A program made the position numbers. Source: Candidatus Eiseniibacteriota bacterium (GTDB lineage: Bacteria; Eisenbacteria; RBG-16-71-46; CAIMUX01; VGJL01). Taken from it: a DNA stretch of 64,000 bases. Positions 58,801 to 64,000 of the stretch are shown here, in pieces. Location: assembly GCA_041946735.1 (NCBI GenBank), contig JBHGAY010000004.1, forward strand, positions 150,292 through 214,291, written 5' to 3'. Numbering within the stretch: position 1 is the stretch's first letter; every line of letters begins with the position of its first letter.

Positions 58801-61800
58801 ACAACCGCATCTTCCGCGAGACGCGCGAGATCTTCGCCGACCGCTACGGGTCGAATCTCCTGACCGCGTTTCGACGCTTCCAGGATGCCGGCGTCCTCGA
58901 GATCATCACCGTCGGCGCGACGCACGGCTTCTTTCCGCTCATGCTCGGCAACCGCAACTGGTGGCGCGGGCAGGTGCTGCTCGCGAAGCAGGACTACGAG
59001 CGCTGCTTCGGCCGCCCGCCGCGCGGGATCTGGCTCCCCGAGTGCGGCTACGAGCCCGGCGTCGAGGAGGTGCTGAAGGAAGCGGGGATCCGCTACTTCT
59101 TCCTCGACACGCACGGGATCCTGCACGCCACGCCGCGTCCGAAGTTCGGCGTCTTCGCGCCCGTCGTGACCAAGTCGGGGGTCGCCGCCTTCGGGCGCGA
59201 TCTCGAGTCGTCGAAGTCGGTCTGGAGCTCGAAGGAGGGATATCCGGGCGATTCGCTCTATCGCGAGTTCTACCGGGACATCGGCTGGGATCTCGACTAC
59301 GAGTACGTCAAGCCGTACCTCCACGGGGACGGCAAGCGCCGCAATCTGGGGATCAAATACTTCCGGATCACCGGGCCGGGCGACCACAAGGAGCCGTACA
59401 ATTTCGCCTGGGCGAAGGAGAGGGCCGCCGAGCACGCGGGCAACTTCATGTTCAACCGCGAGAGGCAGAGCGAGTATCTCTTCCAGCTGCTCGGGCGCCC
59501 GCCGATCATCGTCTCCCCCTACGACGCAGAGCTGTTCGGGCACTGGTGGTACGAGGGGCCCCTATGGATCGAGTATCTCTTCCGCAAGATCGCGTTCGAC
59601 CAGAAGGTGATCGCGACGATCACACCGAGCGAATACCTCGACCGCTTCCCGATCCAGCAGATCGCCACCCCCTCCGGTTCGTCGTGGGGATACAAGGGAT
59701 ACGCGGAGGTCTGGCTCAACGGATCGAACGACTGGATCTATCCGCACCTCCATGCCGCCGCCGAGCGGATGGTGGAGCTCGCGAATCGCTACCGGGACCG
59801 CTCCTCTCTCGATCCGCTCTACGCGCGGGCGCTCAGCCAGGCGGCCCGGGAGCTGCTGCTCGCGCAGAGCAGCGACTGGGCGTTCATCATGAAGACCGGC
59901 ACCATGGTCAGCTATGCCGTGCAGAGGACGAAAGAGCACATTGCCAATTTCAACAAGATCTACAACGACATCCATTCCGGAAGGATCGACGAATGGTGGC
60001 TCTCTGCGGTCGAGCAGAAGAACAACATCTTCCCTGACCTCGACTACACCGTCTATGCGGATCCCGCTTGATACGGCTTGCCGCCGGCGCAGGCAGATCC
60101 CGAGAGCGGAACGGAAGGCGCGCGGCGCACGGGCGGCCCTGTTCGCCGCTCTGCTCTCGGTCGCCCTGACGGGTGCCGCGCTCTGCCAGGGCGACGCTGC
60201 GGCCGACGCTCCGGCCGGCGCGGAGGAGGTGCCGCGCCCCGACTTCAGCCTTCCCGCCGCTCAGGACACGACGATCCTGAACCAGGTCGTCCTCTCCTTC
60301 CGCGAGCATTTCCGCTACGACCAGCATCCCGACTCGACCCTCTACGGCACGGTGGAGCTGCACGCCTACAAGGTCCTGGGCGACGGCACCATCGTCCGCG
60401 ACACCCGCCTGGTGGTCGTGGACGCGCCAAACGACCTGACCGTCGGCGTTGTCACCGACAAGGAGGTTTATCGGCCGGGGGAAACGGCCCAGATCGACCT
60501 GCAGACGAGCGACCACGCGGGAAGCGGGGTCCAGACGGCGCTGGGGTTGGCCATCGTGGACGAATCCGTCTTTGCCCTTCAGCAACAGGACCCGGGCTTT
60601 GCCAAGCTCTACTTTATGCTCGAACAGGAGCTGATGGAGCCGTTCTACCAGATCAAGCAGTTTGAGTTTCCGGCCGAAATCCAAGAGGACGAGGATGTGC
60701 TGCGCCAGACGCAGGACGACGCGGCCAAGGCGGCCTGGTCCGGGATCCCGGCAACGGCCACCGTGTCGCTCAACTCGCGCGAGATCAAGATGGCCTCGAT
60801 CGAGCAGGCCCAGGCGAGCGGATTTCAGCGCCTGGAGCAGTTCGGCACGCTGGCAACGGTGTTTGTGCCGCTCTTGCTCTGGATCGTCGTCGTCGTCATC
60901 CTCGTCGACGCGCACGCCTTTGAAAAGGCCGTGGAGCGAACGTTCGTCGGCGCCGCCATCCTGGTGGGCGTCGCCATACCCCTGTTCTGCGTGGTCCTCG
61001 CTACCCAGAGACAGATGGCCGGGGAGTTTGCGGCCATGTTCTACCCCTTCCTGATCATCTTTGTCGGAGGAGGGCTCTTTCTCGCCGGGTACGGCTGGCA
61101 GAAGCGGAACACGGCCGCGCAGTTTGTCGGCCTGTTGGCGCTGGCCTGGAGCGGCGCCGTCTGGGTGCTCGACCGCGCCCTCGGCCAAAGCGCCTCCCCG
61201 TCGATGGGGCTCATCGCCCTGGCCGTCCTCGGCGGCCTCATGATCCCCGGCGTCTACCTGCTCTTCGGGCAGGGGTTGTGGGTACAGGAGCAGCACGCCG
61301 CCGGGGCCACGGCCACAGGCATGAGCGCCCTGGCCGTGCTGCTGCTGGTCCTGCTGCCGTTCCTCCTGGCTTCGTGCGGCGCCGCTATGGGGCGCATGAT
61401 GCCGGCCCAGGTCACCGCCCCACCGCAGGTTGTGAAGGAGGAAGAGGCGGCGCCGGCCCAGGAAGGCGCCCCGCGGCTGCGGCAGTATTTTCCCGAGACG
61501 CTCTACTGGGCGCCCGAAGTAGTGACCGACCGGCACGGCTACGTCGCGCTGGATATCCCGTTGGCCGACAGCATCACCACCTGGCGGTTGACGGCGCTGG
61601 CTTCCTCGCAGGACGGGCGCCTCGGCTTTACCACCCACGGGGTGCGCGTCTTCCAGGACTTTTTCGTCGACATCGACCTGCCGGTCGCCCTCACCGTGGA
61701 CGACGAAGTCAGTATCCCCGTCGGCGTCTACAACTATCTGCCCGAGGAGCAGCAGGTGCGGCTCGAGGTGCAGCAGGAGCCGTGGTTCGAGCTGCTGGGA

Positions 61801-64000
61801 GCGGGCGAACAGGTCATTGCCATCGCCCCCAACGACATCACCGTGGTCTACTTTCCCATCCGCGTGCGTGACTTTGGACAGCAAGGCTTCCAGGTAACCG
61901 CCTGGGGCACGCAGATGAACGACGCCATCCGCCGCGAGGTCCAGGTCGTCCCGAACGGCAAGGAAGTGTGGCAGACCGAGAGCAACTGGCTGCGGACGAG
62001 CCGGGAGGTGCCGATCGACATCCCGGCCGGCGCCGTCGACGGGGCAACGTACGTCGAGGTCAAGATTTACCCCGGGGCGTTGGCGCAGGTAGTGGAAGGA
62101 TTGGAAAATATCCTCCACCTGCCCCATGGCTGATTCGAACAGAGTACGTCGGCGACGTACCCAAACGTGTTGGTCCTGGATTACCTGCAGCGGATGCAAG
62201 TCGCCAGCCCCGAGGCACAGATGATGGCCGAAAAGTACGTGGCCACCGGCTATCAGCGGCTGCTGACCTTTGAGGTTCCGAGCGGCGGATTCTCGCTCTT
62301 TGGGAGCCCGCCCGCCGACCCGTTCCTGACCGCCTACGGCTTGATGCAGCTGGCGGACATGAAGCGGATCTACCCGGTCGACGAGGCAGTGATCGAACGG
62401 ACGGCCGAGTGGCTGTTGGACCGCCAGAATATGGATGGAAGCTGGCAGACGGGCGACGTGCGCGCCGGTAGTGGCGTTCTCGGTTCGACCGCTTATGTCA
62501 CCTGGGCACTCATCCAGGCCGGTTATGGAAAGGACCAAGGGGTCGCCCAAGCGATCGACTACCTCCGCGAATTCGCGCCGCGGGAAAAAGATGCGTACAG
62601 CCTGGCCCTGGCCGCCAACGCCCTGGCCGCTTACGACGCCGGGGACAGCGGCACGCGGGCTATCGTCGACCTGCTGTACAAGATGCGCGTGACCGCGGGC
62701 GACGGGGTCCATTGGCCGATCACCGCCAGCTCTTTCATGGGGGCAACCGGGACCAGCGGCAGCATCGAGACCACGGCCCTGGCCGCCATGGCCCTGATGC
62801 AGGCGGGCGTCCACCCCGACGCGGCGAGCGCCGCCCTGTCTTACCTGGTGCAGTCCAAGGATTCCTGGGGCACCTGGAGCACGACCCAGGCGACGATCCT
62901 TTCGCTCAAGGCGCTGCTCATGGCCGGCGAACAGCGGGCCGAGGTCGGCGAGCCGGCCCAGGTGCGCATCAGCCTGAACGGCGAACAGGCCCAGGAGGTT
63001 GCGATCGGCGAGGAGAATGCCGATGTGGTGCACCTGGTCACCTTTGCCCAGGGCTTTTCGCCCGAGGGGGCGAACCGGGTGTCGATCGAGCTCCAGGGCG
63101 GTGGCAACCTGATGTACCAGGTGGCCACGCGCTACTACATGCCCTGGGAGCTGGTGCCGGAGGAAGCCGGGGATGAGCAGGCGATCACCATCGACCTGAG
63201 CTACGACCGGACCGCCCTGGCGGTCAACGACACGGTAACGGTGGACGTCGACGTGACACTGAACCGCGCGGGCATGGTCCGGATGGCCCTGGTCGACCTG
63301 GGCGTGCCCCCGGGATTTAGCGTCATGGAGGAAGACTTGCAGCTGCTCGTGGAGAAAGAGATGATCTCGCACTATGAGTTGACCGGGCGGCAGATCATCC
63401 TCTACCTGGAAAACTTTTCCTCGGAGGCGCCGCTGCGTTTCAGCTACCGCCTGCTGGCGCGCTTTCCGCTGCGGGCGCAGACACCGCCGTCGACGGCGTA
63501 CGACTATTACAACCCGAGCCAGGTTACGGTAGAGGCGCCGTTGGAGGTGGTGGTAGAACCGTAGGATGTCGGCGGCAACCTTGCGGAGACTCGAAAAACC
63601 TTTGCAAGGGGCAAAGCACAAGGAAGAGAAGGAAAACAAGGAAAACCGGGAAAACCAGGGCGGCGCAGGGAAAGCTGCCCTGGTTTTTCGTGCTTGCGCG
63701 GAGGCAGAGGTTCGGACAGCGGATGAAAGCGGAGAAGCGGAGAAAAGCTACAGTCTGCGAAAGATCTTGGAGTGCCGAAGCCTTGCTTCGGCTTACTTTG
63801 GTCAGTTCCCACGCAGCGCCGAAGCCTTGCTTGGTCCTCTAGATATACAGTATCGCCGAGAAGCTGCCAACTTTTCGGCGACACCATCGAGTTTCGGCCC
63901 TTCTGCTGACGTGTTTGGAGTCTTCAGCCGGCATATTGAGACTCGTCTGCCGACGTGTTACGGCTCGTCTGCCGACGTGTTACGGCTCGTCTGCCGACGT

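What a model noticed while it worked through the whole genome (the two positions that open the first line are those of the whole stretch)
60055..63564. Alpha-2-macroglobulin with selenocysteine in place of the thioester cysteine (predicted internal selenoester)
Gene calls g02804+g02805 (C34:210346-213855, plus) are one 1169-aa bacterial alpha-2-macroglobulin read through an in-frame TGA. The TGA sits exactly at the cysteine of the thioester motif (LPHG-U-FEQ instead of P-x-G-C-F-E-Q), so the reactive bond that traps proteases would be a Sec-Gln selenoester, not a Cys-Gln thioester. The same recoding occurs in A2M genes of at least 67 other species genomes (Anaerolineae and other Chloroflexota, Planctomycetota, one Bacillota, one Vulcanimicrobiota), so it is a natural, recurrent variant and not a broken gene.
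Evidence so far: Translation across the TGA gives A2M_BRD/A2M + TED_complement/A2M_recep in one frame (pfam.tsv; call 45). 120 of 120 best full-length homologs in the 5.8-billion protein set have P-x-G-C-F-E-Q at this place. A pattern scan of 185,579 species genomes for GG-TGA-TTY-GAR-CAR..ACN..ACN-TAY-CC found 67 loci, all reading G-U-FEQ-[STCV]TS.TYP in frame; 62 of 67 are open for more than 150 codons on both sides of the TGA, 4 are cut by a contig end and one has 148 open codons upstream. 10 nt after the UGA 90% of cells of a 7-bp hairpin GUACGUC-GGY-GACGUAC pair; its third-codon positions (ACG UCG GYG ACG) are >=90% conserved while third positions further downstream vary freely. Control: in 22 Cys-form [...]
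(Added by a program. Inside this text positions count along the whole contig: contig position 150,292 is position 1 of the stretch shown here. "Call 12" and the like, gene names such as g00115 and contig names such as C1 are that model's own, and its searches are not shown. The text may have been shortened before it was handed on; [...] marks where a part breaks off. The agent that wrote the report below was given it as the finding of a first reader that could run no searches.)

Follow-up and report, generated by a model that had tools for sequence, protein, structure and literature searches.

The report
Selenocysteine at a macroglobulin's thioester site
A bacterial protease-trap protein of the alpha-2-macroglobulin family carries a selenocysteine codon, with its RNA insertion hairpin, exactly where the reactive thioester cysteine should be, so its covalent warhead would probably be a selenium ester, a use of selenium not found in the selenoprotein catalogues searched.

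Summary
Observation confirmed. Window 60055-63564 (+) is one 1169-codon frame with a single in-frame TGA (62131-62133). It aligns with the Cys of GCFEQ in 120 of 120 database homologues and with the Cys of human A2M's PYGCGEQ.

A 7-bp, 3-nt-loop hairpin starts 10 nt downstream and meets all four published bacterial SECIS constraints. It pairs in 95% of cells in 68 Sec-form sequences and 34% in 21 Cys forms.

dN/dS is equal upstream and downstream of the TGA (0.37 and 0.38). The genome has selA, selB, a Sec-containing selD and tRNA-Sec.

The Sec form is in at least 72 species genomes, and in 29 of 44 close homologues in a class sample. Sec and Cys interchange at least 6 times on the tree.

Selenocysteine insertion is well supported (about 0.9). 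The Sec-Gln selenoester is inferred (about 0.55).

The window's copy lacks the first ~500 residues, ends 436 nt from a contig end, and looks laterally acquired from Chloroflexota.

No paper or catalogue searched mentions it. This scan noted the same thing earlier on other genomes.

The parts
60055..63564 (+). Whole reading frame of the A2M-family selenoprotein (1169 codons including one UGA). Gene callers split it at 62133.
62131..62133 (+). In-frame TGA (U693) at the thioester cysteine position. Read as selenocysteine.
   Evidence: It aligns to the Cys of GCFEQ in 120 of 120 homologues and to the Cys of human A2M's PYGCGEQ.
62140..62142 (+). CAG codon of Gln696, the acyl partner of the thioester motif (U-F-E-Q).
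   Evidence: F-E-Q is kept in all 29 TGA forms of an unselected class sample.
62144..62160 (+). Bacterial SECIS hairpin. 5' arm GUACGUC (62144-62150), loop GGC (62151-62153), 3' arm GACGUAC (62154-62160). It starts 10 nt after the UGA, with 17 nt from the UGA to the loop.
   Evidence: (-8.3 kcal/mol)
60133..60189 (+). N-terminal hydrophobic segment (aa 27-45) after an Arg/Lys-rich stretch. Signal peptide or membrane anchor. Residues 1-78 do not align with homologues.
   Evidence: hydropathy; the assignment is an inference
60358..60579 (+). A2M bait-region domain match (aa 102-175).
60850..61383 (+). Six predicted membrane-spanning helices (aa 266-443), lying where a bait region would be. This is a trait of the whole family.
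61498..61767 (+). A2M (MG7-like) domain, aa 482-571.
62077..62916 (+). Thioester domain (TED), aa 675-954. It holds U693 and Q696.
63280..63528 (+). Receptor-binding (MG8-like) domain, aa 1076-1158.

Best explanation
The gene encodes a membrane-anchored, outward-facing member of the alpha-2-macroglobulin / thioester-protein superfamily. Its UGA at 62131-62133 is decoded as selenocysteine by the genome's own SelA/SelB/SelD/tRNA-Sec system. A 7-bp, GGC-loop SECIS hairpin inside the coding sequence, 10 nt downstream, directs the insertion.

Sec takes the place of the thioester cysteine, and the partner glutamine (U-F-E-Q) is kept. On folding, the protein is therefore predicted to form an internal Sec-Gln selenoester, buried between the TED and MG8 domains as in native A2M and C3. 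When a protease cleaves an exposed linker, the bond would be uncovered and attacked directly by a lysine amine of the protease, tying it covalently to the trap. A selenoester should react faster than a thioester.

What is shown by comparison: the recoding, the SECIS, the machinery, purifying selection through the whole frame, and a native-type fold. What is inferred: that selenium is really inserted (about 0.9), that the selenoester forms (about 0.55), and that proteases are the targets.

The window's copy was probably acquired from Chloroflexota and lacks the first ~500 residues.
For: 1. There is one in-frame TGA at the Cys of the thioester motif.
2. 75 further distinct Sec-form sequences exist. 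The frame stays open after the TGA for 456-508 codons to a natural stop in 64 of 67 pattern loci; the other 3 are cut by contig ends.
3. Median dN/dS is 0.371 over 300 codons upstream and 0.376 downstream, in 58 sequences.
4. Hairpin pairing is 95.2% of cells in 68 Sec forms, with 0 of 500 shuffles reaching the covariation score. It is 33.6% in 21 Cys forms, which is shuffle level.
5. Third-codon entropy at codons +5 to +8 is 0-0.12 bit in Sec forms and 0.99-1.68 in Cys forms, while flanking codons vary equally in both.
6. The peptide differs with the hairpin: FEQ-TSS in Cys forms, FEQ-STS/TTS in Sec forms.
7. Two pairs keep pairing through changes on both sides.
8. The hairpin meets the bSECIS model in the Fig. 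2 legend of PMC13188914 (passage). The loop is 3 nt with G first, the stem is 7 bp, there are 17 nt from UGA to loop, and the energy is -8.3 kcal/mol.
9. The genome has tRNA-Sec, selB (349 bits), selA (479 bits) and a selD that itself holds an in-frame UGA followed by a hairpin with a GGA loop at +23. TGA is the commonest stop of long frames, 1965 of 3195, so the code is not reassigned.
10. The tree of 125 rows needs 11 Sec/Cys changes, at least 6 of them forced by well-supported branches. Cys forms nested among Sec forms keep the Sec-type TTS peptide.
11. The model of aa 470-1169 (pLDDT 85, pTM 0.80) matches native C3, A2ML1, CD109 and A2M at TM 0.79-0.84. It does not match activated C3b (0.33-0.35).
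12. Gln is kept in all 29 of 29 TGA forms of an unselected class sample.
13. In peptide-ligation chemistry, phenyl selenoesters reacted 14-fold faster than the matching thioester (PMC11600164, passages).
Against: - There is no RNA, protein or selenium-labelling evidence.
- The window's hairpin is not unusually stable for its composition (z +0.52; 135 of 200 shuffles fold as well).
- Covariation amounts to two evolutionary events. The 7 sequences with G-U form one clade.
- 9 of 76 Sec forms lack this hairpin (8 from Planctomycetota, plus L051), and I found no convincing common alternative (consensus -2.96 kcal/mol).
- Presence of selA does not discriminate. It is in 61 of 64 Sec-form genomes, but also in 347 of 401 genomes of the class and 146 of 201 Planctomycetota.
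- The motif loop is the least confident part of the model (pLDDT below 50 at model residues 219-225).
- A selenoester is a higher-energy bond than a thioester, so forming it from a Gln amide is less favourable (general chemistry, recalled). It may not accumulate.
- The window copy lacks about 500 N-terminal residues, ends 436 nt from the contig end, and is a compositional outlier, with only 2 of 400 genome windows farther from the genome mean. This particular copy may be inactive or misassembled.
- There is no bait region in the usual sense, because six membrane helices occupy that place.
Confidence: 0.7

Rival explanations
1. Selenocysteine is inserted, but it does not sit in a stable Sec-Gln selenoester. 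It stays as a free selenol, or forms a selenenyl-sulfide, and serves another purpose such as redox sensing, metal binding or a transient acyl carrier.
For: - All catalogued bacterial selenoproteins are described as mostly redox proteins (PMC13188914 and PMC13326102 abstracts).
- Selenoester formation from an amide is thermodynamically harder than thioester formation (recalled chemistry).
- The model is unsure about the motif loop.
That would suit a Sec-Cys redox pair.
Against: - The Gln partner and the whole F-E-Q motif are kept in all 29 of 29 TGA forms of an unselected sample.
- Sec and Cys forms interchange at least 6 times within one family with the same domains. That argues for the same job done by either residue.
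- The fold is the native, thioester-burying arrangement.
Confidence: 0.2
2. The family-level recoding is real, but the copy in this window is a dead or artefactual one. It would be a 5'-truncated fragment acquired laterally, or joined to this contig's end by misassembly, and no longer making a working trap.
For: - The protein aligns to homologues only from their residue ~501.
- The gene ends 436 nt before the end of contig C34, and its tetranucleotide make-up is farther from the genome mean than 398 of 400 random windows.
- No close homologue was found in 150 other genomes of the phylum; there were 3 weak Cys-type hits, the best at 46% identity.
- The 35-nt TGA-plus-hairpin stretch is shared exactly with other organisms in the same soil data set (word depth up to 135 against 9-11 in the flanks). 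That is the kind of repeat at which assemblers can mis-join.
Against: - The frame is intact for 1169 codons with only the one TGA.
- GC3 (0.867) matches the neighbouring genes (0.81-0.89).
- Depth is alike on both sides of the shared stretch (9.24 and 10.9).
- The first 78 residues form a plausible new signal or anchor segment rather than an abrupt junction.
- A naturally short form with its own start exists in L072.
Confidence: 0.25
3. The UGA is a real stop. Either the gene is a pseudogene, or it makes two separate products: an N-terminal piece ending at G692 and a C-terminal piece from a downstream start.
For: Table 11 gene calls split it. A GTG at 62167 could start a 465-residue product.
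Against: - 76 distinct sequences in at least 73 genomes (counting this window's own) keep the same TGA in frame, with F-E-Q directly after it.
- Purifying selection is equal on both sides.
- The cut would fall inside the first helix region of the TED domain.
- The Sec-specific hairpin has no role in this reading.
Confidence: 0.03
4. The UGA is read through as an ordinary amino acid (Cys, Trp or Gly), either by a reassigned code or by near-cognate decoding, without selenium.
For: Read-through would also keep the frame open. Cys is the residue expected at this place.
Against: - TGA ends 1965 of 3195 long open frames in this genome, so it is not reassigned.
- A hairpin that fits the SECIS model is tied to the TGA forms only.
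- The dedicated Sec machinery is present.
Confidence: 0.03

Closest known systems
Eukaryote-type thioester proteins with solved structures: human A2M (7von, 6tav), A2ML1 (7q1y, 7q5z), CD109 (8s3o), mosquito TEP1 (2pn5, 4lnv), complement C3 (8cem, 2a73)
   Same: - The MG7-CUB-TED-MG8 module is the same. Human A2M is the best sequence match among solved structures (E 2e-36), and U693 lies on the Cys of PYGCGEQ.
- The model superposes on the native forms at TM 0.79-0.84.
- Like human A2M, the window protein has no histidine at the position where A2ML1, C3 and C4B use one to form an acyl-imidazole (mechanism from a PMC9156758 passage).
   Different: - Sec codon in place of Cys.
- Motif U-F-E-Q instead of C-G-E-Q.
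- Six membrane helices where the bait region would be.
- Bacterial origin.
- The window copy lacks MG1 to about MG5.
Cys-form paralogues and orthologues of the same family in Anaerolineae and other Chloroflexota (about 1650 aa; for example P0002, and P0046 of Longilinea arvoryzae, annotated 'large extracellular alpha-helical protein')
   Same: 59% identity over 1169 aligned positions (BLAST, gaps included) to P0002. The domains are the same and the six-helix membrane insert is the same.
   Different: - They have TGC/TGT at the site and no hairpin. None of the 21 has more than 3 of the 7 pairs.
- Their peptide is FEQ-TSS.
- The largest Cys clade has a conserved His (G-L-V-H-E) at the catalytic-histidine position, which no Sec form has: 0 of 75 Sec forms against 32 of 50 Cys forms.
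Type I bacterial alpha-2-macroglobulins (E. coli ECAM/YfhM, Salmonella SaA2M)
   Same: A bacterial, membrane-tethered, monomer-type thioester protease trap. This description is recalled knowledge, and the earlier notes of this scan named this group as closest.
   Different: - No ECAM or SaA2M chain is among the 49 solved-structure sequences matched at E 1e-5, nor among the Foldseek rows printed (ranks 1-49).
- No conserved neighbour gene such as pbpC was seen next to 8 family loci.
- The anchor is a set of membrane helices; I did not see a lipobox (sequence inspection only).
Known bacterial selenoprotein families with Sec/Cys pairs (formate dehydrogenase alpha, SelD, glycine reductase and others; 111 families and subfamilies in BSepDB)
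   Same: An in-frame UGA aligned with Cys in homologues, a SECIS hairpin just downstream, dependence on selA/selB/selC/selD, and repeated Sec/Cys exchange.
   Different: - The residue replaced is not a redox or metal-ligand cysteine. It is the acyl-carrying cysteine of an internal thioester.
- 'macroglobulin', 'A2M', 'thioester' and 'protease' have 0 occurrences in the one BSepDB supplementary file held as text. 'macroglobulin', 'A2M' and 'thioester' have 0 occurrences in the BSepDB main text.

Membership tests
Alpha-2-macroglobulin / thioester-containing protein superfamily | Domain series BRD - A2M(MG7) - TED - receptor-binding (MG8) in one chain | tested here: met
   Pfam PF07703, PF00207, PF07678 (E 3.7e-41) and PF07677 are all above their cut-offs.
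Alpha-2-macroglobulin / thioester-containing protein superfamily | Three-dimensional arrangement of native A2M/C3, with the TED packed against MG8 and CUB | tested here: met
   The model has pLDDT 85 and pTM 0.80. Foldseek gives TM 0.79-0.84 to native C3, A2ML1, CD109 and A2M, and 0.33-0.35 to C3b.
Alpha-2-macroglobulin / thioester-containing protein superfamily | Thioester motif C-x-E-Q with a cysteine | tested here: not met
   The Cys codon is TGA (U693). F-E-Q with the Gln is kept. This is the variant feature.
Alpha-2-macroglobulin / thioester-containing protein superfamily | Exposed bait region between the BRD and MG7 | tested here: inconclusive
   Six hydrophobic helices (aa 266-443) lie there, flanked by polar linkers. 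Cys homologues have the same.
Alpha-2-macroglobulin / thioester-containing protein superfamily | Full set of N-terminal MG domains | tested here: not met
   The window protein aligns from residue ~501 of 1658-residue P0002. Other family members, Sec forms included, are about 1650 aa.
Alpha-2-macroglobulin / thioester-containing protein superfamily | Internal (thio/seleno)ester bond and covalent capture of a protease | not testable with these tools
   Needs mass spectrometry, methylamine labelling and protease conjugation assays.
Bacterial selenoprotein (SelB/SECIS-dependent UGA recoding) | In-frame UGA aligned with Cys in homologues | tested here: met
   (120 of 120 have GCFEQ)
Bacterial selenoprotein (SelB/SECIS-dependent UGA recoding) | Coding conservation continues downstream of the UGA | tested here: met
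   The frame stays open after the TGA for 456-508 codons in 64 of 67 loci. dN/dS is 0.371 upstream and 0.376 downstream.
Bacterial selenoprotein (SelB/SECIS-dependent UGA recoding) | bSECIS consensus: loop of 3-9 nt with G in its first two places, upper stem of 4-16 bp, 16-37 nt from UGA to loop, MFE <= -7.5 kcal/mol (PMC13188914, Fig. 2 legend) | tested here: met
   Loop GGC, 7-bp stem, 17 nt from UGA to loop, -8.3 kcal/mol.
Bacterial selenoprotein (SelB/SECIS-dependent UGA recoding) | Hairpin conserved beyond coding needs, specific to UGA forms, with compensatory changes | tested here: met
   95.2% of cells paired against 33.6% in Cys forms. Third-position entropy is 0-0.12 bit against 0.99-1.68. 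Two pairs change on both sides, which is two events only.
Bacterial selenoprotein (SelB/SECIS-dependent UGA recoding) | selA, selB, selD and tRNA-Sec in the same genome | tested here: met
   All three proteins score above the curated cut-offs, and ARAGORN finds a tRNA-SeC with anticodon tca.
Bacterial selenoprotein (SelB/SECIS-dependent UGA recoding) | Selenium shown in the protein | not testable with these tools
   No RNA or protein data were available.
Type I bacterial A2M (ECAM/YfhM type) | Closest sequence or structure relatives are ECAM/SaA2M, with a conserved pbpC-type neighbour | tested here: not met
   No such chain is among the 49 sequence matches at E 1e-5 or the Foldseek rows printed. 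The neighbours of 8 family loci share no gene.
Histidine-assisted thioester proteins (C3, C4B, A2ML1 type) | His about 110 residues after the thioester Cys that forms an acyl-imidazole | tested here: not met
   The window segment WQTGDVRAGSGVLGS holds no His. 0 of 75 Sec forms have the motif. The position was identified by alignment of P0046 to the CD109 His and the human A2M Asn. That C3's catalytic His is the equivalent position is recalled.

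The most novel reading that the evidence does not exclude
These proteins carry a genetically encoded internal selenoester. 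This would be the first natural protein whose selenium serves as the leaving group of a stored acyl bond used for covalent capture, rather than for redox chemistry.

Sec occurs only on a background that lacks the catalytic histidine of the C3/A2ML1 type. The heavier chalcogen may therefore be this lineage's way of making a direct-attack warhead fast enough, and its repeated Sec/Cys switching may track selenium supply or the speed needed against local proteases.
Probability: 0.45. Interest if true: 0.9.

Novelty: new variant of a known kind. Interest (0 to 1): 0.8.

Why it matters
Selenoproteins are described almost entirely as redox enzymes. A selenocysteine at the acyl-carrying cysteine of an internal thioester would extend selenium biology to covalent-capture chemistry. 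It would also give a natural test case of selenoester against thioester reactivity in one protein scaffold, because Sec and Cys forms of the same family exist side by side.

It also matters for annotation. In at least 72 species genomes this roughly 1650-residue gene is split into two 'genes' at the UGA. In a sample of one class, the Sec form is the majority of the close homologues (29 of 44). The family is not named in the selenoprotein catalogues I could search.

Practically, A2M-based covalent protease capture is already used as a selection tool (PMC9918453, abstract only). A faster warhead could be useful there.

Tried and rejected
- Association with Sec machinery. selA is present in 61 of 64 Sec-form genomes. 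It is nearly as common in the background: 347 of 401 in the class, a tally that includes two unpublished genomes (G394, G434), and 146 of 201 Planctomycetota. The test does not discriminate. One search was my own slip, an E-value limit so strict that nothing passed.
- Alternative SECIS for the 8 Planctomycetota-type Sec forms. RNAalifold gave only a weak consensus (-2.96 kcal/mol). Unresolved.
- Thermodynamic exceptionality of the window hairpin. Not exceptional (z +0.52).
- Rfam. Nothing near its thresholds in 61900-62400.
- NCBIfam. No named model for this protein, only sub-threshold cyclase-repeat noise.
- Conserved gene neighbourhood. None among 6 Sec and 2 Cys loci.
- 'Sec compensates for the missing catalytic His'. 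0 of 75 Sec forms have the His motif against 32 of 50 Cys forms. Among 6 phylogenetically independent Sec/Cys pairs, though, the His differs in at most one, so it is a trait of one Cys clade and not shown to be coupled. Other residues that separate Sec from Cys forms follow the clade as well.
- Expression. No RNA holder listed. The raw-read run X3 laid no reads on the stretch, so it gave no test.
- Literature. Five full-text searches and term look-ups in four selenoproteome papers and one supplement found no mention of a selenocysteine A2M. The supplements of PMC13188914 could not be read. The BSepDB file may have been cut when stored, and its web tables were not seen.
- Script faults. One search had a wrong regular expression, crashed after printing, and one search was empty. 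All were redone.

Full report
**The observation.** Reading TGA as U, window 60055-63564 (+) is one frame of 1169 residues with a single recoded codon, U693, in LHLPHG-U-FEQSTSATYP. Under table 11 the frame is split at 62133 and reopens at a GTG at 62167. In the joined frame Pfam finds A2M_BRD (aa 102-175), A2M (482-571), TED_complement (675-954, E 3.7e-41) and A2M_recep (1076-1158). The DNA reads GGC TGA TTC GAA CAG AGT ACG TCG GCG ACG TAC. This places a 7-bp stem GTACGTC/GACGTAC with loop GGC at 62144-62160, 10 nt after the TGA.

**The TGA is at the thioester cysteine.** All 120 of the 120 best homologues in the 5.8-billion protein set read GCFEQ there. Against solved structures the best match is human A2M (7von/6tav, E about 2e-36), and U693 is aligned with the Cys of PYGCGEQ. 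The '120 of 120' figure is biased, however. A Sec form is cut in two by gene callers, so it cannot rank as a full-length protein.

**How widespread the recoding is.** I repeated the pattern scan and got the same 67 loci, all reading G-U-FEQ.TS.TYP in frame.
- They lie in 64 genomes, because three genomes hold two loci each.
- After the TGA the frame stays open for 456-508 codons to a natural stop in 64 of 67 loci. The other three are cut by contig ends.
- L074 has a frameshift 148 codons upstream, L061 is truncated upstream, and L072 is a short form with its own start.
- A protein search of 401 genomes of the class of G004, independent of the pattern, gave 44 close matches (E <= 1e-77). Of these, 29 carry one TGA and 15 carry none.
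- All 29 have the TGA at the Cys codon followed by F-E-Q (26 checked, 3).
- Eight of these genomes were missed by the pattern, so the Sec form is in at least 72 species genomes.
- By record titles the hosts are Anaerolineae and other Chloroflexota, Planctomycetota, one Bacillota and one Vulcanimicrobiota.

**The downstream half is translated.** For 58 sequences (the window plus 57 loci with enough flank), median pairwise dN/dS is 0.371 for the 300 codons before the TGA and 0.376 for the part after it. dS is near saturation, so the absolute values are rough. The equality is the point.

**The hairpin behaves as a SECIS.**
- Among 76 distinct Sec-form sequences, 47 pair at 7 of 7 positions, 20 at 6, and 9 at 5 or fewer. 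None of 21 Cys forms exceeds 3 of 7.
- I aligned 68 Sec forms, leaving out the 8 Planctomycetota-type sequences. In these, 95.2% of cells pair and 0 of 500 shuffles reach the covariation score.
- The same structure on the 21 Cys forms pairs in 33.6% of cells, which is the shuffle level.
- Third-codon entropy at codons +5 to +8 is 0-0.12 bit in Sec forms and 0.99-1.68 bit in Cys forms. Codons +1 to +3 and +10 to +15 vary alike in both.
- The hairpin even changes the protein. Cys forms read FEQ-T-S-S, while Sec forms read FEQ-S/T-T-S.
Pair 21-35 is U-A in 54 distinct sequences and G-U in 7 (ACG...TTC, with Tyr changed to Phe). Pair 24-32 is G-C in 61 and A-U in one, L125. The seven G-U sequences form one clade, so these are two events.
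- The hairpin meets the four constraints of the consensus bSECIS model quoted in PMC13188914 (Fig. 2 legend, passage read). The loop is 3 nt and begins with G, the stem is 7 bp, 17 nt separate UGA and loop, and the energy is -8.3 kcal/mol.

Three results weigh against this. The window's 60-nt fold is no more stable than shuffles (z +0.52). Rfam has nothing for the region. I found no convincing shared structure for the 8 Planctomycetota-type genes.

**The machinery.** G000 has a tRNA-Sec (C10), selB (349 bits) and selA (479 bits). It also has a selD with its own in-frame TGA, in the context AACAG-U-ASK, followed by a hairpin with a GGA loop at +23. TGA ends 1965 of 3195 long frames, so it is an ordinary stop elsewhere. 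Across hosts, selA is in 61 of 64 Sec-form genomes. It is also in 347 of 401 genomes of the class, a tally that includes the unpublished G394 and G434, and in 146 of 201 Planctomycetota. This agrees with the reading but does not discriminate.

**Evolution.** I built a tree of 125 rows (75 Sec, 50 Cys). The site was masked, L035 and L127 were dropped as too short, and duplicates were merged. The tree needs 11 Sec/Cys changes, at least 6 of them forced by well-supported branches. Cys forms nested inside Sec clades, such as P0002, keep the Sec-type TTS peptide. That fits recent Sec-to-Cys replacement.

The window gene sits in a well-supported clade of 42 rows (38 Sec, 4 Cys) whose named members are all Chloroflexota. 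In 150 other genomes of the window's own phylum I found only three weak Cys-type hits, the best at 46% identity, and none in the 4 genomes of its family. G000 has a single copy. Lateral acquisition is therefore the simplest reading.

**Caveats on this copy.**
- It aligns with homologues only from their residue ~501. Its first 78 residues are unrelated, though they contain a signal-like segment.
- It ends 436 nt before the end of contig C34.
- Its tetranucleotide make-up is farther from the genome mean than 398 of 400 random windows, although its GC3 matches its neighbours.
- In the soil data set that probably gave rise to this assembly, the contig covering the TGA shows no differences. The 35-nt TGA-plus-hairpin stretch has word depth up to 135 against 9-11 in the flanks.
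- Another contig in that data set joins the same stretch to a different upstream sequence. So other Sec-form genes in that soil share the element exactly, and the element is a place where assemblies could mis-join.

**Structure and likely mechanism.** An AlphaFold model of aa 470-1169, built with a 40-sequence alignment, has pLDDT 85 and pTM 0.80. Its least confident stretch is the motif loop. It superposes on native C3, A2ML1, CD109, C5 and A2M at TM 0.79-0.84. It matches activated C3b poorly, at 0.33-0.35.

A2M-family proteins hold a Cys-Gln thioester that is exposed after cleavage and reacts with amines. Where a nearby histidine forms an acyl-imidazole, it also reacts with hydroxyls (PMC9156758, passage). 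The largest Cys clade of this family has a conserved His in G-L-V-H-E. This aligns with the His of CD109's VIHSE and the first Asn of human A2M's LLNNAIKGG. The window protein and all 75 Sec forms lack it. The Sec forms would therefore be of the direct-attack type, like human A2M. The link between Sec and the missing His has no phylogenetically independent support.

Phenyl selenoesters reacted 14-fold faster than a matching thioester in peptide ligation, with a caveat the authors state about leaving-group pKa (PMC11600164, passages). I infer a Sec-Gln selenoester warhead. This step is not shown.

**An unusual family trait.** Six hydrophobic helices (aa 266-443 in the window protein) occupy the place of the bait region. 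The same is seen in Cys homologues, including the Longilinea arvoryzae protein. With an N-terminal anchor and an even number of helices, both halves would face outward. The polar linkers on either side are the likely cleavage sites (inference). No gene is conserved next to 8 family loci.

**Novelty.** Five full-text searches found no paper that joins selenocysteine with A2M or thioester proteins. Term look-ups in deep-Sep, the 2026 AEM review, BSepDB and the Haft preprint gave 0 occurrences of 'macroglobulin' and 'thioester' in all four, and of 'A2M' in the first three, the only ones where it was searched. The one BSepDB supplementary file held as text also has none. The AEM review's supplements could not be read. 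NCBIfam has no model for it.

Earlier notes of this same scan describe the same recoding on other genomes. They are not independent evidence. They name ECAM-type proteins as closest, whereas my searches place eukaryote-type A2M, A2ML1, CD109 and C3 closer.

**Verdict.** This is a genuine, recurrent selenocysteine form of an A2M-family protein, with probability about 0.9 for Sec insertion. It has a predicted selenoester warhead (about 0.55). The copy in this window is a truncated, probably laterally acquired example.

Noticed in passing
window 60850-61383 (aa 266-443); also P0002 aa ~685-867 and P0046 aa ~677-869: Six predicted membrane-spanning helices sit between the bait-region domain and MG7, where other A2Ms have the bait. 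This is a trait of the whole ~1650-residue family, Sec and Cys forms alike, together with an N-terminal anchor helix.
   Followed up: partly
window 60055-60290 and the contig end (window 64000 = C34:214291): The window's gene lacks the first ~500 residues of the family and begins with 78 unrelated residues that hold a signal-like segment. It overlaps the stop of the GH57 gene by 17 nt, ends 436 nt from the contig end, and is a tetranucleotide outlier (2 of 400 genome windows are farther).
   Followed up: partly
Alignment column at window aa ~802: The largest Cys clade has a conserved His (G-L-V-H-E) that aligns with the His of CD109's VIHSE. No Sec form has it (0 of 75). Independent contrasts do not show that the two traits are coupled.
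   Followed up: yes
window 62131-62169, in run X1: The TGA-plus-hairpin stretch has word depth up to 135 against 9-11 in the flanks. One contig joins it to a different upstream sequence. Other Sec-form A2M genes in the same soil data set therefore share this 35-nt element exactly.
   Followed up: partly
G000:C2:108941-109867 (-), locus L010: The genome's selD is itself a selenoprotein (AACAG-U-ASK). A hairpin with a GGA loop starts about 23 nt after its UGA.
   Followed up: partly
L019, L029, L032, L052, L056, L072, L075, L078 (Planctomycetota) and L051: These Sec forms lack the 7-bp hairpin. Each folds into a longer stem on its own, but no shared structure emerged. They may use a different SECIS.
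   Followed up: partly
L074, L061, L072, L127: L074 has a frameshift 148 codons before the TGA. L061 is cut off 288 codons upstream with no homologous continuation. L072 is a short form with its own Met and a hydrophobic start. L127 (G436) is a Cys form with a TGA elsewhere in the matched stretch.
   Followed up: partly
window 59950-63639 (-): A 1229-codon open frame lies antisense to the A2M gene. In DNA of 66% GC such shadow frames are expected, and nothing suggests it is a gene.
   Followed up: no
window 56173-60071 (+): The upstream genes are a DUF4912 protein with a weak sub-threshold Rho_N-like match at its N-terminus (19.1 bits, cut-off 24.9) and a GH57 branching-enzyme-like protein (Glyco_hydro_57 + BE_C). 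They have no evident functional link to the A2M gene.
   Followed up: no
window 63566-64000 (+): The 145-codon frame that runs off the contig end has no Pfam or NCBIfam match.
   Followed up: partly
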